This document shows positions 8,832-60,322 of a stretch of DNA of 64,000 bases, in pieces (the stretch's first letter is position 1; every line of letters starts with the position of its first letter). Position numbers and translations under genes: made by a program. The DNA lies in NCBI RefSeq assembly GCF_017348835.2, contig NZ_CP071375.1; one strand, given 5' to 3'. The stretch comes from Escherichia coli (GTDB lineage Bacteria; Pseudomonadota; Gammaproteobacteria; Enterobacterales; Enterobacteriaceae). The notes below the pieces were generated by a model, which did not search any database, was not told where the DNA came from, and saw only the letters and a list, made by a program, of their open reading frames with translations.

Positions 8832-10166
8832 TCATTCCTTGAAATCGTTTGCATCCAGCTCGTGTCGGGAAAGCAGTTTATAAAATTCTGTCCGGTTGCG
8901 CCCCGCCATTCTCGCCGCGTGGGTGACGTTGCCTTTGGTAATTTGCAGCAGCTTACGCAAATAGTTGAGTTCAAACTGATTACGTGCCTCAACAAAGGTT
9001 GGCAGCGCCGTATTTTCGCCCTCCAGCGCCTGCTCTACTAATGCATCACTAATCACCGGAGATGAGGTCAGCGCCACGCACTGTTCAATCACGTTGACCA
9101 ACTGGCGCACATTACCCGGCCAGCTCGCGGTCATCAGGCGTTTCATTGCATCGGTGGAGAACGCGCGGACAAACGGTTTATGTCGCTCTGCCGCCTGGCG
9201 CAACAGGTGATTTGCCAGTAGCGGAATGTCTTCTGTGCGCTCTGCCAGAGCCGGAATTTTCAGGCTGACAACGTTAAGGCGGTAATAGAGATCTTCACGG
9301 AATTCCCCGCGCGCCATCGCTTTTGGCAGGTCGCGGTGAGTGGCGGAAATAATCCGCACGTCGATATCAATATCGCGGTTACTGCCCAGCGGGCGCACTT
9401 TACGCTCCTGCAACACGCGCAGCAGTTTGACCTGCAACGGTGCGGGCATATCGCCAATCTCATCGAGAAATAGCGTACCGCCTTCCGCCGCCTGGAATAA
9501 ACCTTCGCGATTGCTGACAGCGCCAGTAAACGCGCCACGCGCATGACCAAACAGCTCCGACTCCAGCAATTGCTCGGGCAATGCGCCACAGTTAATAGCA
9601 ATAAATGGTTTGCTATTGCGCGGGCTGGCGTTGTGGATAGCCTGGGCGAAAATCTCTTTCCCGGTGCCGCTCTGACCGTTAATCAAAACGCTAACGTCTG
9701 ATTGCGCCACCAGCCGCGCCTGTTCCAGCAAACGCAGCATCAGCGGGCTGCGGGTGACAATCGCCTCGCGCCAGCGTTCGTCGGTGGCTGGCGCGGATTG
9801 TTCCAGCGCATCATCAATTGCCTGATATAGCGCGTCTTTATCAACAGGCTTGGTGAGGAAACTAAAAACGCCCTGCTGTGTTGCAGCAACGGCATCGGGA
9901 ATAGAACCATGCGCGGTAAGAATAATTACCGGCATTCCCGGCTGCACTTTCTGGATTTCAGCAAACAGCTGCATACCGTCCATTTCATCCATCCGCAGGT
10001 CGCTGATGACTAAATCTACTTTTTCGCGATTCAGTACCCGTAATCCTTCAGCGCCACTTTCCGCCGTGACCACGCTGTAGCCTTCGCTGGTCAGGCGCAG
10101 GCCAAGCAGTTTCAGCAATCCCGGATCGTCATCGACCAATAATAAATGCGCAGGTTTATGGCTCAT
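8832..10166 (-). CDS. glrR: Sigma54-dependent response regulator GlrR (YfhA)
   Basis: Receiver domain ([11 protein letters not shown]...), AAA+ sigma54-activation domain (GESGTGKE, GAFTGA) and C-terminal HTH; start trimmed to [10 protein letters not shown]. Confidence 0.93.
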
Positions 10167-10869
10167 CAGGAGTGACCTCATGGGTGGATGGCGCGGGCTT
10201 TTCACCCTCGTGCGGCGTATCCGGCGAGAAATTTCCAGCCGGTTTGCGGGTCGAGAGCTGGCGTTCAATATCGGTCAGGTTTTCCAGCTTGCGGGTGGTG
10301 AGTTCCAGTTGCTGCTGTAGAACGTGATGTTGCTGGCGCAAAGTATCCAGCTCGCTGTCACTGGACTGCTGGAGTTTGCTGTAGCGTTGGCGCTCTTCCG
10401 CCAGTTGCAGTTGCAGCGCCTGACCGTCGCGCCAGAGTTGATACAGAGGGCGAACCTGTGCCGGGATCTCGGTACTTAACGCTTCAATACGCGCGACCAG
10501 CTGGCGGCGCTCATACGGCGTAATTTTGGCGTCGGCGAGCAAAATCCCTTGCTTAAAGGTATTTTGCCAGCTGCCGTCGTCATATTGGCGGGCTTGCTGA
10601 CGCGACTGCGCAGGCATTAAACGATCAGCACAATCCATCGCCCGCAGCCAGTAAAGCGGATTGGTTTCGGTTGATTTACCTTGCAGCGCCCAGATGTCGC
10701 TACATTCAGTAGAAAGATAGTCAGCCAGTTGATAAACCGGAATTTTTTCTTCTGCTGGCGTATCAATGGCTGGCTTATTGTGATTCTGCACGCAACCCAG
10801 CAATGCCAGACATGGCAGCCCTGCCAGCCACAGCCGTCGGGGCAATAATCGTTGAAAAATGTGTCGCAT
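10156..10869 (-). CDS. qseG: Lipoprotein QseG/YfhG
   Basis: MRHIFQRLLPRRLWLAGLPCLALLGCVQ lipobox; stop overlaps the glrR start by 11 nt. Confidence 0.9.
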   Translation of the reverse strand: MRHIFQRLLPRRLWLAGLPCLALLGCVQNHNKPAIDTPAEEKIPVYQLADYLSTECSDIWALQGKSTETNPLYWLRAMDCADRLMPAQSRQQARQYDDGSWQNTFKQGILLADAKITPYERRQLVARIEALSTEIPAQVRPLYQLWRDGQALQLQLAEERQRYSKLQQSSDSELDTLRQQHHVLQQQLELTTRKLENLTDIERQLSTRKPAGNFSPDTPHEGEKPAPSTHEVTPDEP

Positions 10870-11033: not shown

Positions 11034-12461
11034 TTATTTCGTGTTTTTCGACGACGGTAATTCAATGCGGAAACAAACGTCTTGCCCGCTCTCGTCGACC
11101 AGATACAGTTCCCCTTGCATACGGCGAATACAATCCCTGGCAATGCTTAATCCCAGACCGCTGCCCTTCACCGCCCCTTTTCGCTGGTGGCTTCCCTGAA
11201 AAAAGGGTTCGAAGATCATGGCGCGTTCCTCTTGCGGAATGGGCGTGCCTGTATTGATGACATCAATATAAACCCGCGCACCATGTAAACTGCTGCGAAG
11301 GCAAATGTTACCGGATTCAGCCCCGTAGTGCACCGCATTGGAGTAAAGATTATCCAGTACGCTCATCAGCAGCATTGGCTCCGCCAGGCAAGCTGTTGCT
11401 TTGAGATCGACGTCGGTATGCATCATTTTAGCCCGTGCGGGCAGGCTATGAGCAGAAACCACTGTCTCCACCAGCGGTGCTAATTCAACATTCTCCAGTT
11501 CCACCGCACTGTCCGCCTGTTTACGGTTGTAATCAAGCAGTTGTTCGATCAGTTTTTGCAAATTGCGGCTGCTGCTATCAAGAATGCTCACCACCTCTTT
11601 TTGCTCTGGCGTAAGCGGCCCGACAACCTGATCAGCCAGTAATTCAGTGCCCTCGCGCATACTCGCCAGTGGCGTTTTTAATTCATGAGATAAATGTCTT
11701 AAAAATTGATGGCGTTGGGATTCCAGCCATGACAGGCGCTCACTTAACCAAAGAATACGTTGCCCAACCGAGCGTAACTCGCTCGGTCCACTGAACGAAA
11801 CGCTATTGCCCAGAGAACGCCCTTCCCCCAACCGGTTGATCATCCTCTCGATATTTTTCACCGGACCAATAATCATACGCGTGAAAAGCAGTACCATTAC
11901 CAGACTCACCAGAAATAGCACCAGCGATTGCCAACCAAAATATTGCCCACGTTCGGCGATTTCACGCTGAAGTTGCTGCCCACGAGAGAACACCACTGTG
12001 CGCGTGGCCTGCACCATTTCGGTATTGGCACTGGCAAAGGCTTCAAGACGCGCGGCGGCAGCAGCATCGGGACCACTGTTGTTGCACTGAAGTTGGGCCA
12101 GATTGTTCAAGTCCTGACGCAATGCCTGGTAAAGTTTATCGTCTGGCAGTACGCCTGCGTGGGCATCGAGCATTTCGCTGTAACGCTTGCGCTGGCTTTG
12201 ATAAACCTTCGCAAGCGTAGGGTCGTCCAGCACGCAATACTGACGGTAGCTACGCTCCATCTCCAGCGCCGCGTTGGTCATCGCTTCACTGCGCCGGGCA
12301 TCGATAAGCGTAGTGCGGTTGACCAGCGCCGCCTGGTCGCTAAGCGCATTCAGGCTTTGCCAGGCTTGCCATGCCAGCACCAACAGGGGTAGCAGAATCA
12401 GCAAAAATGCCAGCATTACCAGTTGTCGTAATGAGCGGGGAAAAACGGGCCAGCGTTTCAA
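11034..12461 (-). CDS. glrK: Sensor histidine kinase GlrK (YfhK/QseE)
   Basis: HAMP and HisKA (HELKTPL) plus HATPase motifs; N-terminus MKRWPVFPRSL requires a TTG start at 12461. Confidence 0.88.
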   Translation of the reverse strand: MKRWPVFPRSLRQLVMLAFLLILLPLLVLAWQAWQSLNALSDQAALVNRTTLIDARRSEAMTNAALEMERSYRQYCVLDDPTLAKVYQSQRKRYSEMLDAHAGVLPDDKLYQALRQDLNNLAQLQCNNSGPDAAAAARLEAFASANTEMVQATRTVVFSRGQQLQREIAERGQYFGWQSLVLFLVSLVMVLLFTRMIIGPVKNIERMINRLGEGRSLGNSVSFSGPSELRSVGQRILWLSERLSWLESQRHQFLRHLSHELKTPLASMREGTELLADQVVGPLTPEQKEVVSILDSSSRNLQKLIEQLLDYNRKQADSAVELENVELAPLVETVVSAHSLPARAKMMHTDVDLKATACLAEPMLLMSVLDNLYSNAVHYGAESGNICLRSSLHGARVYIDVINTGTPIPQEERAMIFEPFFQGSHQRKGAVKGSGLGLSIARDCIRRMQGELYLVDESGQDVCFRIELPSSKNTK

Positions 12462-12517
12462 GGTGTTACTCTCGTCAGACGCGAATAGCCTGATGCTAAC
12501 CGAGGGGAAGTTCAGAT

Positions 12518-12703
12518 ACAACAAAGCCGGGAATTACCCGGCTTTGTTATGGAATAAGGCGGTGCCTAACTCGACGTTTCGCCCGATGGTTGATATAGCT
12601 ACGCTGATATCAGAAGTTGGACGGCAGGCACCTTGTTGTGCGTCATTCGAATTTTATGTAGCACGTCCCGAAGGGGCTGACATAAGTCGGTGAATGAGCC
12701 ACT
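12518..12703 (-). ncRNA. glmY: GlmY small RNA
   Basis: Reverse strand reads AGTGGCTCATTCACCGACTTATGTCAGCCCCTTCGGGACGTGC... ending in terminator AAAGCCGGGTAATTCCCGGCTTTGTTGT; ends approximate. Confidence 0.85.
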
Positions 12704-12713
12704 GGTTACTATT

Positions 12714-12731
12714 ATGCAGTAACTGTGCCAA
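12714..12731 (-). promoter_or_regulatory. Sigma54 (-24/-12) promoter of glmY
   Basis: Reverse strand TGGCAC-N5-CTGCA placed 12/24 nt upstream of the GlmY 5' end. Confidence 0.7.
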
Positions 12732-12819
12732 TAAAGAAAATAGTTTGGTAACGTACTGATTATACGTTGTTTTGAGGGATTTATGGCTTCTTCGCTATTT
12801 GAATGTAAATCAGCCACTG

Positions 12820-12933
12820 TGTCGCTAAAAAGAGACAACTTAAGATAAACTTATTAGATGACATTAAAATCAATGAGTTAAATGTCACCAAAAAGCGACA
12901 CAGCAAACCACCCATTGTCGTGATTTACAGACA
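12820..12933 (-). promoter_or_regulatory. Three GlrR binding sites upstream of glmY
   Basis: Three TGTC-N10-GACA motifs at 12820-12837, 12883-12900 and 12916-12933. Confidence 0.7.
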
Positions 12934-12934
12934 C

Positions 12935-12958
12935 AAAAAAGCTCCCGGAGTTGGGAGC
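12935..12958 (-). terminator. purL rho-independent terminator
   Basis: GCTCCC-loop-GGGAGC hairpin followed by TTTTTT on the reverse strand. Confidence 0.7.
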
Positions 12959-12982
12959 TTATAATAGCGGTTGGTATTTAAT

Positions 12983-13013
12983 GCCGGATGCGGCGTGAAT
13001 GCCTCATCCGGGC
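12983..13013. repeat. REP element
   Basis: GCCGGATGCGGCGTGAATGCCTCATCCGGGC matches the REP palindromic unit. Confidence 0.65.
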
Positions 13014-13036
13014 TGCAAAACCAATGGGCTGACGAC

Positions 13037-16000
13037 TTACCCCAACTGCTTACGTGCATTGCGGAAAATGCGCATCCATGGGCCATCCTCGCCCCAGTTT
13101 TCCGGATGCCAGGAGTTGCTGACAGTACGGAAAACACGTTCCGGGTGCGGCATCATAATGGTGACTCGACCGCTTTCAGTCGTGACCGCCGTAATACCGT
13201 TCGGAGAACCGTTCGGGTTAGCCGGGTAGGTTTCAGTGACTTTACCGAAGTTATCGACATAGCGCAGTGCCACCAGCCCTTTGCTTTCCAGCGCCGCCAG
13301 ATGCGCCGCATCACGCACTTCAACGCGCCCTTCACCGTGAGAGACAGCAATCGGCATCTGTGAGCCCACCATCCCCTGCAATAGCAGCGACGGGCTTTGG
13401 GTCACTTCAACCAGGCTGAAACGCGCTTCAAAGCGATCGGAGGTATTGCGCACAAAACGTGGCCACAACTCACTACCTGGGATCAGTTCACGCAGATTAG
13501 ACATCATCTGGCAACCGTTACATACCCCCAGCGCCAGCGTTTGCGGACGGTGGAAGAAGGTTGCAAACTCATCGCGTACACGGTCATTGAACAGGATAGA
13601 CTTCGCCCAACCTTCACCGGCACCCAGCACATCACCGTAGGAGAAACCACCGCACGCGACCAGGGCGTGGAAATCCTCCAGGCCCGTGCGTCCAGCCAGC
13701 AGGTCGCTCATATGCACGTCGATAGCATCGAAGCCTGCACGGTGGAAAGCTGCCGCCATTTCAACATGCGAGTTCACGCCCTGCTCACGCAGCACAGCAA
13801 CTTTCGGACGTGCGCCAGTGGCAATATACGGTGCTGCCACATCTTCGTTGATATCGAACGACAGTTTTACATTCAGGCCCGGATCGGCGTCGTTAGATTT
13901 CGCCTGGTGCTCCTGGTCGGCACACTCCGGGTTGTCACGCAGGCGCTGCATCTGCCAGGTAGTTTCTGCCCACCAGACACGCAACGTAGTGCGGCTTTCG
14001 CTGAATACAGTCTGCCCGTTGGCGGTAATCACAAAACGGTCACCGGAAACCGCCTGCCCAACATAATGGACGCAATCCGCAAGCCCATGCTGTGCCAGTA
14101 CGGATTCGACCGCTTCACGGTCAGCGGCACGAACCTGAATCACCGCACCCAGTTCTTCGTTAAACAACGCCGCCAGGCGATCGTCACCCAGAGTGGCTAT
14201 ATCCGCGTCAATGCCGCAATGACCAGCAAAGGCCATTTCCGCCAGCGTTACCAGCAGGCCGCCATCAGAGCGGTCGTGATACGCCAGCAGCTTACGCTGT
14301 GCAACCAGCGCCTGAATCGCGTCATAGAAGCCTTTCAGTTGCGCGACATCGCGTACATCTGCCGGTTTGTCGCCAAGCTGACGATAAACCTGCGCCAGCG
14401 CCGTTGCGCCCAGCGCGTTATTGCCTTTGCCCAAATCAATCAGCAGCAGTGCGTTATCTTCGGTAGAAAGCTGCGGCGTGATGGTGTGACGTACATCTTC
14501 CACGCGGGCAAATGCAGAAATCACCAGCGACAGCGGCGACGTCATTTCGCGCTCTTCGTTACCTTCCTGCCAGCGGGTTTTCATCGACATAGAGTCTTTA
14601 CCCACCGGGATCGTCAGGCCCAGCGCCGGACAAAGCTCTTCGCCCACGGCTTTAACGGCTTCATACAGGCCCGCATCTTCACCAGGGTGGCCTGCCGCCG
14701 CCATCCAGTTGGCGGAAAGTTTAATGCGTTTGATATCGCCAATCTGTGTTGCGGCAATATTGGTTAACGCTTCACCGACCGCCAGACGGGCAGAGGCGGC
14801 GAAATCCAGCAGCGCAACCGGCGCACGCTCGCCAATCGCCATCGCTTCACCGTAGTAGCTGTCGAGGCTGGCGGTAGTGACCGCGCAGTTAGCGACCGGC
14901 ACCTGCCACGGCCCCACCATCTGATCGCGCGCCACCATGCCGGTTACGCTGCGGTCACCGATGGTCACCAGGAAAGTTTTCTCCGCCACGGTCGGCAGAT
15001 GCAGTACGCGTTTCACCGCGTCTGCAATGGTGATCCCTTCACGGACCAGCGCATCGCCCTTCGCTTTCAGCGTTTGTACATCGCGGGTCATCTTCGGCGT
15101 TTTACCAAGCAGGACGTCCAGCGGCAGATCGATCGGCTGATTATCAAAATGACGATCGTGCAGAGAAAGATGCAGTTCTTCGGTCGCTTCACCAATCACC
15201 GCGTAGGGTGCGCGCTCACGCTTACACAGTTCGTCAAACAGCGGTAATTGATCGGCAGCAACCGCCAGCACGTAGCGTTCCTGGGATTCGTTACACCAGA
15301 TTTCCAGCGGGCTCATGCCCGGTTCGTCGCTTAGAATATCGCGCAGTTCAAATTTACCGCCGCGCCCGCCGTCGCTCACCAGTTCCGGCATCGCGTTAGA
15401 AAGACCGCCAGCGCCGACGTCGTGGATAAACAGGATTGGGTTGGCATCACCAAGCTGCCAGCAACGGTCGATCACTTCCTGGCAGCGACGCTCCATCTCC
15501 GGGTTGTCGCGCTGTACGGAAGCAAAGTCGAGGTCGGCATCAGACTGACCTGACGCCATGGAAGACGCCGCTCCGCCGCCAAGACCGATGTTCATTGCCG
15601 GGCCGCCGAGAACGACCAGTTTCGCACCGACGTTGATCTCGCCTTTTTGTACGTGATCGGCGCGAATGTTGCCGATCCCGCCCGCCAGCATGATCGGTTT
15701 GTGATAACCGCGCAGCTCTTCGCCATTGTGGCTGTTCACTTTTTCTTCATAAGTACGGAAGTAGCCGTTCAGTGCCGGACGACCAAATTCGTTGTTAAAC
15801 GCCGCACCGCCCAGCGGGCCTTCGGTCATGATGTCCAGCGCGGTGACAATGCGCTCAGGCTTACCGAAATCTTCTTCCCACGGCTGTTCGAAGCCAGGAA
15901 TTCGCAGGTTGGAAACGGAGAAACCAACCAAACCCGCTTTCGGCTTCGCGCCGCGCCCGGTGGCACCTTCATCGCGGATTTCACCGCCGGAACCGGTCGC

Positions 16001-21899: not shown

Positions 21900-21977
21900 T
21901 CGTTGGAATCGTGTGCTGCACAAAATTAAAGTTAAAAAGTAAAACCCCCGTTCCTTACCAGTTCGGGGGTTTTACTT
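21900..21977 (+). ncRNA. ohsC: OhsC antisense sRNA (antitoxin of shoB), approximate
   Basis: Placement inferred from CATAAT -10 at 21888-21893, the 19-nt repeat at 21903-21921 and the terminator at 21945-21973; ends not verified. Confidence 0.4.
21941..21975. terminator. Bidirectional rho-independent terminator (acpS / ohsC)
   Basis: AAAACCCCCG-loop-CGGGGGTTTT with A/T runs on both sides. Confidence 0.7.
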
Positions 21978-21999
21978 TATAAAGAGAACGGTATTATTT

Positions 22000-23862: not shown

Positions 23863-25475
<1,613 letters not shown>

Positions 25476-25717
25476 TCAGCACACGAAACAGACCTGATAT
25501 ACATGGCTCTGCTAACTGCTTCGCTGCAGTTTCAGTTTAGCGGTATATGGGAACCAACGCTGTTTCGTGTGCCGTGGCAACCTGGAGGTGCCAACCTTAA
25601 ACTTCGGGGGAATATTCTATACACAACGACGGGGGATGTCGTTAGCCACGGGAGATTTATCTCATAAATAATTCACGTTGTCGCCGTAACGGCGACAACG
25701 TGAACGAAGATGAGCTA

Positions 25718-26707: not shown

Positions 26708-28507
<1,800 letters not shown>

Positions 28508-28704
28508 AAAGTATGATTATTGTGCCTTAATGCCCGGTTAACCAGGCTTTTAGAAGTCGCTGTTCTGAGCTTAACGTCTGTATTAATAGAAACGCCGCAT
28601 TCTACACTACAACATTGAGGCGAGGAAATGTTCATACCGTATGGATTGTGGTATCTGGAAACGTCCTCGCATTTGTTATGCAAAATGCAACAAAGCCAGT
28701 GAAA

Positions 28705-29184
28705 TCACTGGCTCGCGTCTTCCGAAGATGTTTCAAATCGCACAAGGCCAGGCGGCAATGCCACGCTTAAGATGATCGGTTGCCATTCTGCCCGGGCAGC
28801 AAACTTACGCGAGTAGCCACGCGCAATCAGGAACCCGCCAATACCGCCGAGGACCGCACCACATAATGCTGCGACGTCAGAAGCAAAGAGTAGCTGAAAT
28901 AGCGAAGCGATGAGGAATAATCCCACCAGCGGCGACATATAAACCAGTAATGCGGAGCTAAGCAGGCTGCCTTCGGCGATCCCTAATTCCACTTTTTGCC
29001 CCGGCACTAACGGCTCATCACAGGGTACGACAATGGTATGCGTGGTTTGCGGGCCAAGTTTATTCAACACGCGGCTACCGCAACCGGCGCGTGAAGCGCA
29101 GCTGCTGCATGAGGCTTTAACATCACAACTGACCAGCGCCTGCCCGTTTTGCCAGGAGACGACGGTAGCCCACTCTTTGATCAT
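28705..29184 (-). CDS. rseC: SoxR-reducing / sigma-E regulatory protein RseC
   Basis: 159 aa, position in rpoE-rseABC operon. Confidence 0.9.
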   Translation of the reverse strand: MIKEWATVVSWQNGQALVSCDVKASCSSCASRAGCGSRVLNKLGPQTTHTIVVPCDEPLVPGQKVELGIAEGSLLSSALLVYMSPLVGLFLIASLFQLLFASDVAALCGAVLGGIGGFLIARGYSRKFAARAEWQPIILSVALPPGLVRFETSSEDASQ

Positions 29185-30137
29185 TGCGCTGCCCCGAACT
29201 TAATATTCTCGGCAATGCGTTTCGCCGTTTGCGGCGGCAGTTCACCGACAATGGTGATTTCGGCGTTATCACGTACGCTTGTACTGACGGTTCTGCGTCC
29301 GGTGCGCAACATCTGATCGGTGCTCGATGGCGTAGCGCGGTTAACGTTTACCGAGAAGCTGAATAATCCGTCGGAATAGAGACGTGATTCGATAGGCATG
29401 TTGTCCATCGTCGGTAGCGGACGTCGACTACTGGAAACTTCGCTAAAACCCTGTGGTAACCAGGTTGGCGTCCAGCTGAATTTAGCTTTTTCACCTACAG
29501 GAACAGAAAGCAACGGCGGCAAATTTGCCTTCGCCAGCGTCTGCATACTGCTGCTGATATCCTGATTGACGTTAAAAGCAATCACGCGAAATTGTTCCAG
29601 CGTTTCACCATCGCGATCAAGGAGATCAACCCTCATCGGTAATTTCGATTCGGTGTCCATCCACACGATGTAGCTGTAGCGTGTACCATCTCGGGCAACC
29701 ACGCGAATGACTTCGCAAAGACGATCAGCAATACGCGTGCGCCCGACGGAGATAAAGTCGTAGTAAGGAGAAAGGCGTTTGAAATCGGTATAGATGAGCG
29801 ATGGCAGAGAATCAACAATGTAATCGCCATTAAGCGTGAACGGTTCAAGTCCCGGTTCAAAATAGCTGATTTCATTGCCGCGCTGTACCACTTCCCGGCG
29901 CGGGCCATCCATTTGCAACAATTGTGCAAGAGGACGGTTATCGAGGCGTGCATGTCGATAACGCAGAGACTCAACACCCTGTTTATTGATGCTGATGAAT
30001 GACAGCTCGTAATTCAGTGACTGACTGGCCAGGTTCATCTGCTGTAATAACGCCCCGGACGCGGGAGTGGCCGAGGCGTTAGCAGAGAATAACAGGCTAC
30101 CTGTCACTAATGACATGGCAAACCAAAGTTGCTTCAT
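29181..30137 (-). CDS. rseB: Sigma-E regulatory protein RseB
   Basis: 318 aa periplasmic protein with signal peptide; start overlaps rseA stop. Confidence 0.93.
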   Translation of the reverse strand: MKQLWFAMSLVTGSLLFSANASATPASGALLQQMNLASQSLNYELSFISINKQGVESLRYRHARLDNRPLAQLLQMDGPRREVVQRGNEISYFEPGLEPFTLNGDYIVDSLPSLIYTDFKRLSPYYDFISVGRTRIADRLCEVIRVVARDGTRYSYIVWMDTESKLPMRVDLLDRDGETLEQFRVIAFNVNQDISSSMQTLAKANLPPLLSVPVGEKAKFSWTPTWLPQGFSEVSSSRRPLPTMDNMPIESRLYSDGLFSFSVNVNRATPSSTDQMLRTGRRTVSTSVRDNAEITIVGELPPQTAKRIAENIKFGAAQ

Positions 30138-30822: not shown

Positions 30823-31398
30823 TCAACGCCTGATAAGCGGTTGAACTTTGTTATCAATAGCTTCCCTCGCTCGGAAGATACGTGAACGCACCGTACCTAC
30901 CGGACAATCCATGATAGCGGCTATCTCTTCATAGCTCAGGCCATCCAGCTCCCGCAAGGTTATTGCCATGCGTAAATCTTCCGGGAGGGACTCAATAGTT
31001 CGGAAAACTATCTGTCTCAGTTCTTCTGACAACATTAAGTTCTCAGGGTTCGAAATTTCTTTCAACGCGCCGCCACTTTCGAAGTTTTCAGCTTCAATGG
31101 CATCCACATCACTGGAAGGTGGACGACGCCCCTGAGCAACCAGGTAATTTTTCGCTGTATTTACAGCAATCCGATACAGCCATGTATAAAAAGCGCTATC
31201 TCCCCGGAACGAATCCAGCGCACGATAGGCTTTAATAAAAGCTTCTTGTACCACATCGGGAACATCACCCGACGGCACATAGCGGGAAACCAGACTCGCC
31301 ACTTTATGCTGATAGCGCACTACCAGTAAGTTAAAGGCTTTCTGATCTCCCTTCTGGACCCGTTCAACCAGGACCTGGTCCGTTAACTGCTCGCTCAT
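30823..31398 (-). CDS. rpoE: RNA polymerase sigma-E (sigma-24)
   Basis: MSEQLTDQVLVERVQKGDQKAFNLLVVRYQHKV...; start trimmed. Confidence 0.96.
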   Translation of the reverse strand: MSEQLTDQVLVERVQKGDQKAFNLLVVRYQHKVASLVSRYVPSGDVPDVVQEAFIKAYRALDSFRGDSAFYTWLYRIAVNTAKNYLVAQGRRPPSSDVDAIEAENFESGGALKEISNPENLMLSEELRQIVFRTIESLPEDLRMAITLRELDGLSYEEIAAIMDCPVGTVRSRIFRAREAIDNKVQPLIRR

Positions 31399-31480
31399 CC
31401 GAGGTAAAGTCTCCCCAAACCAAATTTCCACGCGCTATCGAAACGCCACTCCATTAGCTGCAATTTGAGCAAGCAAAGGG

Positions 31481-31508
31481 TTAGAGTGTCTCGTTTTTGT
31501 AAAGTTCC
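31481..31508 (-). promoter_or_regulatory. Sigma-E-dependent rpoE P2 promoter
   Basis: Reverse strand GGAACTT-N16-TCTAA matches the sigma-E consensus. Confidence 0.7.
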
Positions 31509-31782
31509 GTAACGCATCTGTTTTTGTTTGTCATGCTGTAGACGGATCATTATCTATCATTATAAGTCTACAGAATCTGAACATCGCATTATCTGTGTAG
31601 AAATGCCCATTTAACTGCCTGAAGAGTAACCCAACGGCCTTTTTATTTCACCACCTAATCCTCCACCAGCCAGTAACTTCTCTTTTTCTCGCCGCCCTGC
31701 GTCAGCGTGTTTAGCCACTGTAACAAATATTAAAATAGCAGGTGTTTATTCGCACAACATGATGCTATGCTGACCAAACCGT

Positions 31783-34150
<2,368 letters not shown>

Positions 34151-47279: not shown

Positions 47280-47399
47280 ATGCCTGGCAGTTCCCTACTC
47301 TCGCATGGGGAGACCCCACACTACCATCGGCGCTACGGCGTTTCACTTCTGAGTTCGGCATGGGGTCAGGTGGGACCACCGCGCTACTGCCGCCAGGCA
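47280..47399 (-). rRNA. rrfG: 5S ribosomal RNA
   Basis: 120 nt matching E. coli 5S (TGCCTGGCGGCAGTAGCGCGGTGGTCCCACC...) on reverse strand. Confidence 0.97.
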
Positions 47400-47493
47400 A
47401 ATTCTGTCGTATTAACCCGCTTACCGCCGGTTAATCTAATCTGTATCAGGCTGAAAATCTTCTCTCAATCCGCCAAAACACCTTCGGCGTTGT

Positions 47494-50398
<2,905 letters not shown>

Positions 50399-50591
50399 TC
50401 ACAACCCGAAGATGTTTCTTGCGATCCATCATCTTGTTGCGAAAATTTGAGAGACTCACGAACAACTTTCGTTGTTCAGTGTTTCAATTTTCAGCTTGAT
50501 CCAGATTTTTAAAGAGCAAATATCTCAAACATCACCCGAAGATGAGTTTTGAGATATTAAGGCAGGTGACTTTCACTCACAAACCAGCAAG

Positions 50592-50667
50592 TGGCGTCCC
50601 CTAGGGGATTCGAACCCCTGTTACCGCCGTGAAAGGGCGGTGTCCTGGGCCTCTAGACGAAGGGGAC
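50592..50667 (-). tRNA. gltW: tRNA-Glu (UUC) in 16S-23S spacer
   Basis: Reverse strand GTCCCCTTCGTCTAGAGGCCCAGGACACCGCCCTTTCACGGCGGTAACAGGGGTTCGAATCCCCTAGGGGACGCCA. Confidence 0.96.
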
Positions 50668-50752
50668 GTATCAGTCTGCTTCGCAAGACGCCTTGCTTTT
50701 CACTTTCTATCAGACAATCTGTGTGAGCACTACAAAGAACGCTTCTTTAAGG

Positions 50753-52293
<1,541 letters not shown>

Positions 52294-52425
52294 TAAAAGT
52301 TTGATGCTCAAAGAATTAAACTTCGTAATGAATTACGTGTTCACTCTTGAGACTTGGTATTCATTTTTCGTCTTGCGACGTTAAGAATCCGTATCTTCGA
52401 GTGCCCACACAGATTGTCTGATAAA

Positions 52426-52737: not shown

Positions 52738-55311
52738 TTACTGGACGGCGACAATCCGGTCTTCATTAACTTCCAGGCGAATCACTTTACCCGGAACCAA
52801 TTCACCAGACAGTATTTGCTGTGCCAGCGGGTTTTCGATCTGCTGCTGAATTGCACGTTTCAGAGGACGTGCACCATAGACCGGATCGTAACCGTTCTCG
52901 CTCAGCAGTTTCAGCGCCTCGTCAGAAATGTGGATTTCATAACCACGTTCTTCCAGACGTTTATACAGACGTTTCAATTGAATCTGCGCAATCGACGCAA
53001 TGTGCTGTTCACCCAGCGGATGGAAGACCACCACTTCATCGATACGGTTAATGAATTCCGGACGGAAGTTATGGCTAACCACACCGAGCACCAGCTCTTT
53101 CATGTGCGCATAATCCAGTTCACCGAAGCGTTCCTGAATCAGATCGGAACCGAGGTTAGAGGTCATAATGACAACCGTATTACGGAAGTCGACCGTTCTC
53201 CCCTGCCCGTCAGTCAGACGCCCATCATCCAGTACCTGCAACAGAATATTGAAGACATCCGGATGCGCTTTTTCCACTTCATCCAGCAGGATGACGGAAT
53301 ACGGACGACGACGCACCGCTTCGGTCAGGTAGCCACCTTCTTCATAACCGACATATCCCGGAGGCGCACCAACCAGACGAGACACCGAGTGTTTCTCCAT
53401 AAACTCGGACATATCGATACGGACCATCGCCTCGTCGCTATCAAACATAAAGTTCGCCAGCGCCTTACAAAGCTCTGTTTTCCCCACACCAGTTGGGCCG
53501 AGGAACAGGAATGAACCAATCGGGCGATTTGGATCCGCCAGCCCCGCACGGCTACGACGAATAGCGTTAGATACCGCATCAACCGCTTCGTTCTGACCAA
53601 TTACGCGATGGTGCAGTTCTTGCTCCATACGCAGCAGTTTTTCGCGCTCGCTTTCCATCATGCGAGAAACCGGAATCCCCGTCCAACGCGCCAGCACTTC
53701 AGCAATTTCAGCGTCGGTCACTTTATTACGCAACAGACGCATAGTTTTGCCTTCGAGCTGCGTTGCGGCTTCCAGTTGCTTTTCCAGTTCCGGGATTTTG
53801 CCGTATTGCAGTTCAGACATCCGCGCCAGGTCACCCACACGGCGAGCCTGTTCAATAGCGATTTTCGCCTGTTCCAGTTCCGCTTTAATGGTCTGCGTAC
53901 CAGAAAGCGATGCCTTCTCTGCTTTCCACTCTTCTTCTAACTCGGAGTACTGACGTTCTTTGTCGCTCAGTTCTTCGTTGAGCATATCCAGACGTTTTTT
54001 ACTGGCTTCATCAGACTCTTTCATTAACGCCTGTTGTTCCAGTTTGAGCTGGATGATACGGCGATCGAGTCGGTCGAGTTCTTCTGGTTTTGAGTCAATC
54101 TGCATACGAATGCTGGATGCTGCTTCATCGATCAGGTCGATGGCTTTATCCGGCAGCTGACGGTCAGCAATGTAGCGATGAGACAACGTCGCCGCTGCAA
54201 CAATTGCCGGGTCAGTAATTTGCACATGGTGGTGCAATTCGTAACGTTCTTTCAGGCCACGCAGAATCGCAATGGTATCTTCAACAGAAGGCTCGGCAAC
54301 AAACACTTTCTGGAAACGACGTTCCAGCGCAGCATCTTTTTCGATGTACTGGCGATATTCGTCAAGCGTCGTGGCACCTACGCAGTGCAATTCACCACGC
54401 GCCAGCGCCGGTTTCAGCATGTTTCCGGCGTCCATTGCGCCATCGGCTTTACCCGCGCCGACCATGGTATGTAATTCGTCGATAAACAGGATGACGTTGC
54501 CTTCCTGTTTGGCAAGGTCGTTAAGCACGCCTTTTAAACGTTCTTCAAACTCACCGCGATATTTCGCCCCAGCCACCAGCGCGCCCATATCCAGCGCCAG
54601 TACCCGGCGGCCTTTCAACCCTTCCGGCACTTCGCCGTTGATAATACGCTGCGCCAGACCTTCAACGATGGCAGTTTTACCGACGCCGGGTTCACCAATC
54701 AGTACCGGGTTATTTTTAGTACGACGTTGCAGCACCTGAATGGTACGGCGAATTTCTTCATCACGACCAATCACCGGATCGAGTTTGCCCTGTTCGGCTC
54801 GTTCGGTAAGGTCGATGGTATATTTTTTCAAAGCCTGACGTTGGTCTTCAGCACCTTGATCGTTCACGCTTTCACCTCCACGCATTTGTTCAATCGCTTG
54901 AGTAATGTTGGCGGTGGTCGCCCCTGCTGCTTTCAGGATGTCGGCCAGTGTGCCGCGAGACTCAAGTGCCGCCAGAACGAACAGTTCTGACGAGATAAAG
55001 TTATCACCACGTTTTTGCGCCAGCTTGTCGCAAAGATTAAGAACGCGCACCAGATCCTGTGATGGCTGGACATCACCACCAGTACCTTCAACCTGCGGTA
55101 AACGATTTAATGCCTGATTGATATCTGTGCGCAACTGGCCAGCATTTATGCCAGCGGATGTTAATAAAGGACTAACCGAACCCCCTTCCTGATTCAGCAG
55201 GGCGCTCATTAAATGAAGTGGTTCGATAAATTGGTTGTCGTGCCCGAGTGCAAGTGATTGGGCATCGGCAAGAGCAAGCTGGAATTTATTAGTAAGACGA
55301 TCCAGACGCAT
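52738..55311 (-). CDS. clpB: Disaggregase chaperone ClpB
   Basis: Two AAA+ modules (GEPGVGKT and GPTGVGKT Walker A); 857 aa; start trimmed to [10 protein letters not shown]. Confidence 0.97.
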
Positions 55312-55348
55312 AACTCCTCCCATAACGGATCAAAGTTGCTACTGGAGA

Positions 55349-55378
55349 TTAAATGAGGTCATCCCTCAATTATTCAAG
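55349..55378 (-). promoter_or_regulatory. Sigma32 heat-shock promoter of clpB
   Basis: Reverse strand CTTGAAT-N13-CCTCATTTA. Confidence 0.7.
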
Positions 55379-55440
55379 GTTATTGACCAGATTAATGTGA
55401 AAAGAAAATCACGCGTACCGGATCGTCTTGATTCTTTAGG

Positions 55441-60160: not shown

Positions 60161-60176
60161 ACTTAAGGAAACAAAC

Positions 60177-60224
60177 ATGAAACACATACCGTTTTTCTTC
60201 GCATTCTTTTTTACCTTCCCCTGA
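60177..60224 (+). CDS. pheL: pheA leader peptide (15 aa, Phe-rich)
   Basis: ATG AAA CAC ATA CCG TTT TTC TTC GCA TTC TTT TTT ACC TTC CCC TGA = [15 protein letters not shown]. Confidence 0.93.
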
Positions 60225-60271
60225 ATGGGAGGCGTTTCGTCGTGTGAAACAGAATGCGAAGACGAACAATA

Positions 60272-60299
60272 AGGCCTCCCAAATCGGGGGGCCTTTTTT
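60272..60299 (+). terminator. pheA attenuator terminator
   Basis: GGCCTCCC-AAATC-GGGGGGCC hairpin followed by TTTTTT between pheL and pheA. Confidence 0.85.
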
Positions 60300-60322
60300 A
60301 TTGATAACAAAAAGGCAACACT

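What the first reader, a model, noticed from the sequence alone, without database searches (positions are those of the whole stretch)
12518..12933. GlmY sRNA with sigma54 promoter and three GlrR sites, beside the glrK-qseG-glrR operon
The GlmY sequence and terminator are recognisable on the reverse strand. Its 5' end is preceded by TGGCAC-N5-CTGCA at -24/-12, and further upstream by three regularly spaced TGTC-N10-GACA palindromes matching the GlrR recognition pattern. The regulator, its kinase and the target sRNA are thus in one compact module. The purL terminator hairpin abuts the distal GlrR site, leaving very little unassigned sequence. This is an established system and not novel.
Basis: partly seen in the sequence, partly recalled or inferred. 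Interest (0 to 1): 0.25.

Follow-up and report, generated by a model that had tools for sequence, protein, structure and literature searches.

The report
E. coli glmY sRNA and its promoter

Summary
The observation and the interpretation both hold. The window is E. coli, 100% identical to strain PE164 over this stretch.

**What is on the minus strand**
- Rfam GlmY (RF00128) scores 147 bits against a gathering score of 33, at 12703..12556. The full 184-nt gene is 12703..12520.
- TGGCAC-N5-CTGCA lies at 12730..12715.
- The only three exact TGTC-N10-GACA matches in the 64 kb are at 12933..12916, 12900..12883 and 12837..12820 (-230, -197 and -134 relative to +1).
- glrK, qseG and glrR follow directly. 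GlrR and QseG pass their NCBIfam equivalog cut-offs.

**Conservation in other genomes**
- I fetched 120 loci from other species with a GlmY-only probe. 114 carry the sigma-54 motif, and 111 of those have the full 300 nt upstream.
- Of those 111, 101 keep ABS2 and ABS3 exactly 63 bp apart, and 95 also have ABS1 32-33 bp further upstream.
- Motif density upstream is about 35 times the background in the same loci.

- A sigma-70 -10 (CATAAT) overlaps the sigma-54 -12 element.
- Two IHF-consensus sites flank ABS3 and hold their positions across genera.
- A REP-like palindrome lies between the purL stop codon and the purL terminator.
- The GlrR sites are in helical phase (33 and 63 bp apart), not evenly spaced.

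All of this matches Gopel et al. 2011 (PMC3045617). Nothing here is novel.

The parts
12520..12703 (-). glmY gene, 184-nt primary transcript; +1 = 12703
   Evidence: Aligned to the K-12 ncRNA b4441, with one difference in 184 nt visible in the alignment. Rfam RF00128 covers 12703..12556. MFE -64.2 kcal/mol, z -5.5.
12556..12703 (-). Part matched by the Rfam model. Its length of 148 nt equals that of the processed, active GlmY form described in the literature.
   Evidence: for the coordinates. PMC4152352: the 184-nt RNA is processed at its 3' end to a 148-nt form that acts in vivo. The exact processing site was not tested here.
12520..12548 (-). GlmY intrinsic terminator hairpin (12 bp, loop UAAUU), with the U-run partly inside the 3' arm
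   Evidence: RNAfold. Not listed by the simple scanner.
12715..12730 (-). Sigma-54 promoter TGGCAC-N5-CTGCA (GG at -26/-25, GC at -14/-13)
   Evidence: Invariant in 7 E. coli alleles. Present in 114 of 120 fetched loci. The identical 17-mer TTGGCACAGTTACTGCA is listed as an in vivo sigma-54 ChIP-seq site for glmY in PMC4591121.
12711..12716 (-). Sigma-70 -10 hexamer CATAAT (-13..-8), overlapping the sigma-54 -12 element
   Evidence: PMC3045617 names CATAAT as the characterised -10. It is conserved in Escherichia, Citrobacter, Enterobacter, Klebsiella and Salmonella loci and replaced in many more distant genera such as Yersinia, Serratia and Photorhabdus. The -35 is weak (TTTCTT, read), and the promoter scanner did not call it.
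12749..12761 (-). IHF-consensus site AATCAGTACGTTA at -58..-46, between ABS3 and the promoter
   Evidence: Exact match to WATCARNNNNTTR. A match with at most 1 mismatch lies between -75 and -50, mostly at -59 to -56, in 26 of 39 genera.
12820..12837 (.). GlrR site ABS3, TGTCTCTTTTTAGCGACA (-134..-117)
12868..12880 (+). IHF-consensus site AATCAATGAGTTA (-177..-165), lying 2 nt from ABS2, between ABS2 and ABS3
   Evidence: Exact match. The same offset and orientation occur in 35 of 39 genera, 22 of them exact.
12883..12900 (.). GlrR site ABS2, TGTCGCTTTTTGGTGACA (-197..-180)
   Evidence: This is the best conserved of the three sites.
12916..12933 (.). GlrR site ABS1, TGTCTGTAAATCACGACA (-230..-213)
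   Evidence: The literature reports ABS1 as dispensable and less conserved.
12935..12960 (-). purL intrinsic terminator (8-bp stem plus T-run), abutting ABS1
12983..13013 (.). REP-like palindrome between the purL stop codon and the purL terminator
   Evidence: Sequence; the core GCCGGATGCGGCGTGAA. MG1655 lacks 18 nt of it. The name REP is from my own knowledge and was not tested against a library.
11034..12461 (-). glrK (qseE) sensor histidine kinase, TTG start, 58 nt after the glmY 3' end
   Evidence: RefSeq annotation of the identical record. HAMP, HisKA and HATPase_c domains. 474/475 identical to K-12 GlrK.
10156..10869 (-). qseG (yfhG) lipoprotein
   Evidence: NCBIfam QseG equivalog 359 bits against a cut-off of 234. 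Pfam Lipoprotein_20.
8832..10166 (-). glrR (qseF) sigma-54-dependent response regulator
   Evidence: NCBIfam GlrR equivalog 982 bits against a cut-off of 763. Pfam Response_reg, Sigma54_activat and AAA_lid_14.

Best explanation
This is the E. coli glmY locus.

**How transcription works (established for K-12; inferred for this allele)**
- Phosphorylated GlrR is the response regulator of the GlrK/QseG/GlrR system encoded immediately downstream. It binds the three in-phase TGTC-N10-GACA sites 117-230 bp upstream of +1.
- IHF bends the intervening DNA. The GlrR AAA+ oligomer can then contact RNA polymerase-sigma-54 bound at TGGCAC-N5-CTGCA and drive open-complex formation. Transcription starts at window position 12703.
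- A weak sigma-70 promoter, whose -10 (CATAAT) overlaps the sigma-54 -12 element, gives basal transcription from the same start.

**What the RNA does**
- The 184-nt RNA ends at its own hairpin terminator and is trimmed to about 148 nt.
- That form acts as a decoy. It sequesters the RNase E adaptor RapZ, which protects the homologous sRNA GlmZ. GlmZ then activates glmS translation, and so the synthesis of cell-envelope precursors.

**Shown here:** the identity, position and conservation of every DNA and RNA element, and the family membership of GlrR and QseG.

**Taken from the literature:** binding, activation, processing and the decoy mechanism.
For: - Rfam GlmY at 147 bits, with one difference from K-12 glmY in the alignment.
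- The only three exact GlrR motifs in the window sit together at -230, -197 and -134.
- The sigma-54 element is at the right distance from +1. It is identical to the ChIP-seq-mapped sigma-54 site of glmY (PMC4591121).
- Half-sites and promoter are invariant across 7 E. coli alleles, while spacers and flanks vary.
- Across genera, 114 of 120 loci carry the sigma-54 motif. ABS2-ABS3 spacing is exactly 63 bp in 101 of 111 and ABS1-ABS2 spacing is 32-33 bp in 95. Motif density is 9.6 per kb against 0.27 per kb background. Half-sites carry 1.5-2.0 bits against about 0-0.4 in the flanks.
- IHF-consensus sites are positionally conserved.
- Orthology controls: Rfam calls GlmY in 20 of 20 loci, and glrK lies downstream in 92 of 101.
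- GlrR and QseG pass their equivalog cut-offs. GlrK is 474/475 identical to K-12.
- Published experiments describe the same architecture: PMC3045617, PMC4152352 and PMC6075780.
Against: - Nothing substantive.
- The sigma-54 motif alone is not rarer than chance in 64 kb, and the -35 of the sigma-70 promoter is poor.
- I could not see the published figure or supplement that gives the exact IHF site coordinates. Equating my two consensus matches with 'IHF site 1/2' is therefore an inference.
- This strain's allele is only about 97% identical to most E. coli over 12500-12970. Quantitative behaviour could differ from K-12.
Confidence: 0.97

Rival explanations
1. The RNA is the paralogue GlmZ, or a GlmY/Z-like pseudogene, rather than functional GlmY.
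For: GlmY and GlmZ belong to one Rfam clan. A lower-scoring overlapping clan match was suppressed.
Against: - GlmY is the best-scoring clan member, at 147 bits over the full model.
- The gene differs at one position from K-12 glmY b4441.
- Synteny purL-glmY-glrK is as published for glmY. E. coli glmZ lies between aslA and hemY and has only a sigma-70 promoter.
- The region is present in 5425 of 5426 complete E. coli genomes.
Confidence: 0.01
2. The three palindromes are chance matches, or are bound by a regulator other than GlrR, and glmY in this strain is driven essentially by the sigma-70 promoter alone.
For: - A sigma-70 -10 overlaps the promoter.
- In E. coli the sigma-70 promoter supports residual expression without GlrR or RpoN.
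- A putative QseB site has also been proposed in this promoter.
Against: - Three exact matches within 114 bp, against 0.88 expected per 64 kb.
- Fixed spacing and half-site-specific conservation across 39 genera.
- The cognate sigma-54 activator is encoded 2.5 kb downstream.
[quoted passage not shown] Expression falls 4-5-fold without IHF or IHF site 1, to the level seen in a glrR mutant.
Confidence: 0.02

Closest known systems
E. coli K-12 glmY locus (b4441) with overlapping sigma-54/sigma-70 promoters, three GlrR ABS and IHF sites (Reichenbach 2009; Gopel 2011, PMC3045617)
   Same: - Same gene order: purL-glmY-glrK-qseG-glrR-glnB.
- Same +1 and an identical sigma-54 17-mer.
- The CATAAT -10 is identical.
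- The three TGTC-N10-GACA half-sites are identical and at the same positions.
- The mature RNA differs at one position.
   Different: Only allelic differences.
- Base changes in the ABS2 spacer, in the ABS2-ABS3 interval and downstream of ABS3.
- K-12 lacks 18 nt of the REP-like element upstream of the purL terminator.
- Most E. coli genomes are about 97% identical to this allele over 471 nt.
glmY/glmZ promoters of Yersinia, Serratia, Photorhabdus and others (group I of Gopel 2011): strictly sigma-54- and GlrR-dependent
   Same: A sigma-54 element, three ABS spaced 32-33 and 63 bp apart, and an IHF-like site 2 nt from ABS2.
   Different: - In many of those genera the -13..-8 hexamer is not CATAAT (CATTAT, ATTAAG and others), so there is no overlapping sigma-70 promoter.
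- The ABS block sits about 15-20 bp further from +1 (ABS3 at about -150).
Classical NtrC-type enhancer-dependent promoters such as glnAp2
   Same: A response-regulator bEBP binds palindromic upstream sites more than 100 bp from a -24/-12 promoter. IHF or intrinsic bending supports DNA looping.
   Different: The recognition sequence is different (TGTC-N10-GACA), the product is a small RNA rather than an mRNA, and a sigma-70 promoter is superimposed.

Membership tests
GlmY sRNA (Rfam RF00128, clan CL00011) | Covariance-model score at or above the gathering threshold over the full model | tested here: met
   147.1 bits against 33, model positions 1-163 of 163, E 8e-33
GlmY sRNA (Rfam RF00128, clan CL00011) | Genomic context: downstream of purL and immediately upstream of glrK-qseG-glrR | tested here: met
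   RefSeq annotation of the identical record. K-12 has the same order. glrK follows in 92 of 101 orthologous loci.
GlmY sRNA (Rfam RF00128, clan CL00011) | 184-nt primary transcript with a 3' terminator hairpin, processed to about 148 nt | tested here: inconclusive
   Length and hairpin are consistent, and the Rfam match is 148 nt long. Processing itself is known only from the literature.
GlmY sRNA (Rfam RF00128, clan CL00011) | Acts as a RapZ decoy that protects GlmZ | not testable with these tools
   Literature only (PMC4152352; PMC7073468 abstract)
Sigma-54-dependent promoter | GG and GC dinucleotides 10 bp apart (TGGCAC-N5-TTGCW), with the GC about 12-14 nt upstream of +1 | tested here: met
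   TGGCACAGTTACTGCA at 12730..12715, with GC at -14/-13. Conserved in 114 of 120 loci.
Sigma-54-dependent promoter | In vivo sigma-54 occupancy and dependence on rpoN | not testable with these tools
   Literature for the identical sequence in K-12: the ChIP-seq site OS24 and rpoN mutant data
Sigma-54-dependent promoter | A cognate enhancer-binding protein with a Sigma54_activat AAA+ domain | tested here: met
   GlrR: PF00158 at 247 bits, and the NCBIfam GlrR equivalog at 982 bits against a cut-off of 763
GlrR (QseF) upstream activating sites | Three TGTC-N10-GACA palindromes more than 100 bp upstream of the promoter | tested here: met
   Exact matches at -230, -197 and -134. They are the only three in the window.
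GlrR (QseF) upstream activating sites | Conservation of the half-sites and of their spacing in orthologous promoters | tested here: met
   Spacing of 63 bp in 101 of 111 loci, with 32-33 bp for ABS1-ABS2 in 95. About 35-fold enrichment over background. Half-sites 1.5-2.0 bits against about 0-0.4 in the flanks.
GlrR (QseF) upstream activating sites | Direct binding by GlrR and a requirement for promoter activity | not testable with these tools
   Published EMSA and mutagenesis in K-12 and relatives
IHF-assisted enhancer looping | WATCARNNNNTTR sites flanking ABS3 | tested here: met
   Exact matches at 12868..12880 and 12761..12749, positionally conserved in 35 and 26 of 39 genera. Their identity with the published 'IHF site 1/2' could not be checked because the figure and supplement are not held.
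Overlapping sigma-70 promoter (Reichenbach 2009) | A -10 CATAAT overlapping the -12 element, plus a usable -35 | tested here: inconclusive
   The -10 is present at -13..-8 and matches the published hexamer. The -35 matches only 2-3 of 6 positions, and the consensus scanner did not call the promoter.

The most novel reading that the evidence does not exclude
This strain carries a minority promoter allele. Only 20 of 5425 matching E. coli genomes are at least 99% identical to it. It has changes in the ABS2 spacer, next to the upstream IHF-like site, and between ABS3 and the promoter. These could shift the balance between GlrR/sigma-54-driven and sigma-70-driven glmY expression relative to K-12.
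Probability: 0.1. Interest if true: 0.12.

Novelty: already known. Interest (0 to 1): 0.07.

Why it matters
It matters only as a correct annotation. PGAP leaves glmY unannotated in the identical RefSeq record, so the sRNA and its regulatory sites are worth recording. The cross-genus survey independently reproduces the published promoter architecture. It adds a small quantitative detail: ABS2-ABS3 spacing is fixed at 63 bp, and the upstream IHF-like site sits exactly 2 nt from ABS2 in 35 of 39 genera. No open question is advanced.

Tried and rejected
- **Promoter/terminator scanner.** It found neither the GlmY terminator nor the sigma-70 promoter. The first miss appears to be an artefact of maximal stem extension, because RNAfold shows the hairpin. 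The second reflects a poor -35.
- **Supplementary alignments of PMC3045617.** They are not held, so the published IHF coordinates could not be compared.
- **Overlapping ORFs.** ORFs at 12599..12838 (-) and 12274..12693 (+) overlap glmY. I treated them as mechanical, because the stretch is a conserved structured RNA plus its promoter.
- **rpoE P2, the second known GlrR target, also in this window.** I looked for it upstream of rpoE. There were only two relaxed TGT-N12-ACA matches and no clear -24/-12 core with my patterns. The defining paper (Klein 2016, PMC5087721) is not held, so this is left unresolved.
- **GlmZ as an alternative identity.** Rejected on synteny and Rfam score.

Full report
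**1. Observation**

Reading 12300-13200 on the minus strand shows, in order:
- the end of purL (stop codon at 13037);
- a REP-like palindrome (12983-13013);
- a hairpin plus T-run (12960-12935);
- three TGTC-N10-GACA palindromes;
- TGGCAC-N5-CTGCA;
- a structured RNA gene ending in a hairpin;
- the TTG start of a histidine-kinase gene at 12461.

Rfam places GlmY (RF00128) at 12703..12556. It scores 147.1 bits against a gathering score of 33, over the full model. Alignment to the K-12 annotation of glmY (b4441, 184 nt) gives 12703..12520, with one base difference. The RNA folds far better than shuffled versions (-64.2 kcal/mol, z = -5.5) and ends in a 12-bp hairpin.

The exact pattern TGTC-N10-GACA occurs three times in the 64 kb, all here: 12933..12916, 12900..12883 and 12837..12820. 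Shuffles give a mean of 0.88 per window. By my arithmetic, three matches inside any 114-bp span would arise with P < 5e-5. Relative to +1 the sites start at -230, -197 and -134. The spacings of 33 and 63 bp are about 3 and 6 helical turns, so the sites are in phase but not equidistant.

The sigma-54 pattern occurs once in the window, at 12730..12715. That count alone is not significant, because 23 of 100 shuffles give at least one match. Its position is what matters: GC at -14/-13 from the Rfam-defined 5' end.

**2. Identity of the locus**

The stretch is E. coli.
- It is 100% identical to strain PE164, and the region is present in 5425 of 5426 complete genomes.
- RefSeq annotates purL, qseE/glrK, qseG, glrR and glnB in this order, but leaves glmY unannotated.
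- The GlrR protein passes the NCBIfam GlrR equivalog (982 bits against a cut-off of 763). It has Response_reg, Sigma54_activat and AAA_lid domains.
- QseG passes its equivalog (359 bits against 234).
- GlrK has HAMP, HisKA and HATPase_c domains and is 474/475 identical to K-12 GlrK.

**3. Conservation within E. coli**

Seven alleles spanning the identity range were aligned.
- All six half-sites, the sigma-54 element and CATAAT are invariant.
- Substitutions fall in the N10 spacers (ABS1, ABS2), between the sites, and in the REP-like region.
- The window's allele is a minority one. Only 20 genomes are at least 99% identical over 12500-12970, and most are about 97% identical.

**4.

I scanned one genome per species with a GlmY 5'-end probe (AGTNGCTCATTCANCNNNNTATG). 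The probe contains none of the promoter motifs and differs from GlmZ. It returned 120 loci, covering about 40 named genera of Enterobacterales plus five chance hits in unrelated taxa.

- **Sigma-54 element:** 114 of 120 loci have TGGCAY-N6-TGCW within 40 nt upstream of +1. The exceptions are the five chance hits and one Arsenophonus endosymbiont. Of the 114, 111 have the full 300 nt upstream.
- **GlrR sites:** of those 111 loci, 101 have two sites (at most 1 mismatch each) exactly 63 bp apart. 95 also have a third site 32-33 bp further upstream.
- **Enrichment:** motif density upstream is 9.6 per kb, against 0.27 per kb in the remainder of the same loci.
- **Half-site specificity:** with one representative for each of 39 genera, half-site columns carry 1.5-2.0 bits and flanks about 0-0.4 bits. 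ABS2 is the best conserved site.
- **Orthology controls:** all 20 diverse loci tested score as GlmY in Rfam, at 120-171 bits. A glrK homologue follows on the same strand in 92 of 101 loci.

The refutation condition is not met.

**5.

(a) A sigma-70 -10 hexamer, CATAAT, lies at 12716..12711 (-13..-8) and overlaps the -12 element. It is the hexamer characterised in the literature. It is kept in Escherichia, Citrobacter, Enterobacter, Klebsiella and Salmonella. It is replaced in many more distant genera such as Yersinia, Serratia and Photorhabdus, which matches the published grouping. The -35 is weak, and the consensus scanner did not call the promoter.

(b) Two exact IHF-consensus matches flank ABS3.
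- The first is at 12868..12880 and lies 2 nt from ABS2. It has the same offset in 35 of 39 genera.
- The second is at 12761..12749 (-58..-46). A similar site lies between -75 and -50, mostly at -59 to -56, in 26 of 39 genera.
- The paper describes two IHF-like regions flanking ABS3 and shows that IHF and 'site 1' are essential for the sigma-54 promoter. I could not see its figure, so the one-to-one mapping is an inference.

(c) A REP-like palindrome lies between the purL stop codon and the purL terminator.

**6. Mechanism**

These steps are established for K-12 and inferred for this allele.
1. GlrK, activated by the lipoprotein QseG, phosphorylates GlrR.
2. GlrR~P binds the three ABS.
3. IHF bends the DNA.
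4. GlrR activates RNA polymerase-sigma-54 at the -24/-12 promoter, while a weak overlapping sigma-70 promoter starts at the same nucleotide.
5. Sigma-54 occupies this exact 17-mer in vivo in K-12.
6. GlmY (184 nt) is trimmed to 148 nt. It sequesters RapZ, which spares GlmZ from RNase E cleavage. GlmZ then activates glmS.

**7. Verdict**

Observation confirmed, interpretation supported, system already known. The corrections are minor, as listed in section 5. Interest is low.

Noticed in passing
L006 (E. coli EPSSH018, NZ_CP125889.1), alignment columns about 515 onward: In this strain an IS1A element is inserted inside the glmY terminator stem. It separates glmY from glrK, and the record holds two places matching the query. 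This could alter GlmY 3' end formation.
   Followed up: partly
window 31432-31805 (rpoE-nadB intergenic); rpoE ORF 30823..31431 (-): rpoE, the second reported GlrR/QseF- and sigma-54-dependent target (PMC6075780), is also in this window. Only two relaxed TGT-N12-ACA matches (31799..31782 and 31725..31708) were found, and no clear -24/-12 core. The defining paper is not held.
   Followed up: partly
window 12983-13013: A REP-like palindrome lies between the purL stop codon and the purL terminator. K-12 MG1655 lacks 18 nt of it.
   Followed up: partly
window 12500-12970: This glmY promoter allele is rare. Only 20 of 5425 matching E. coli genomes are at least 99% identical, and most are about 97%. 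One change creates an extra lone TGTC half-site at 12863..12860 that K-12 lacks.
   Followed up: partly
L001 / NZ_CP114128.1 and 39 other RefSeq records: PGAP annotates no feature for glmY in these E. coli records ('none' under the match). The curated K-12 record does annotate it.
   Followed up: no
L102 (Yersinia pestis) 2309-2432: Rfam finds STnc490 (an Hfq-binding sRNA) between glmY and glrK. There glrK starts about 1.3 kb downstream of glmY, instead of about 240 nt as in E. coli.
   Followed up: no
window 28389-29220 (+), 25391-25605 (-), 21902-21978 (+), 55292-55430 (-), 60176-60301 (+), 47282-52294 (-): Other Rfam matches above the gathering score:
- AsrC, antisense to rseC
- rncO
- ohsC antitoxin RNA
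- RyfD
- Phe leader
- a complete rRNA operon with a spacer tRNA and StyR-44
   Followed up: no
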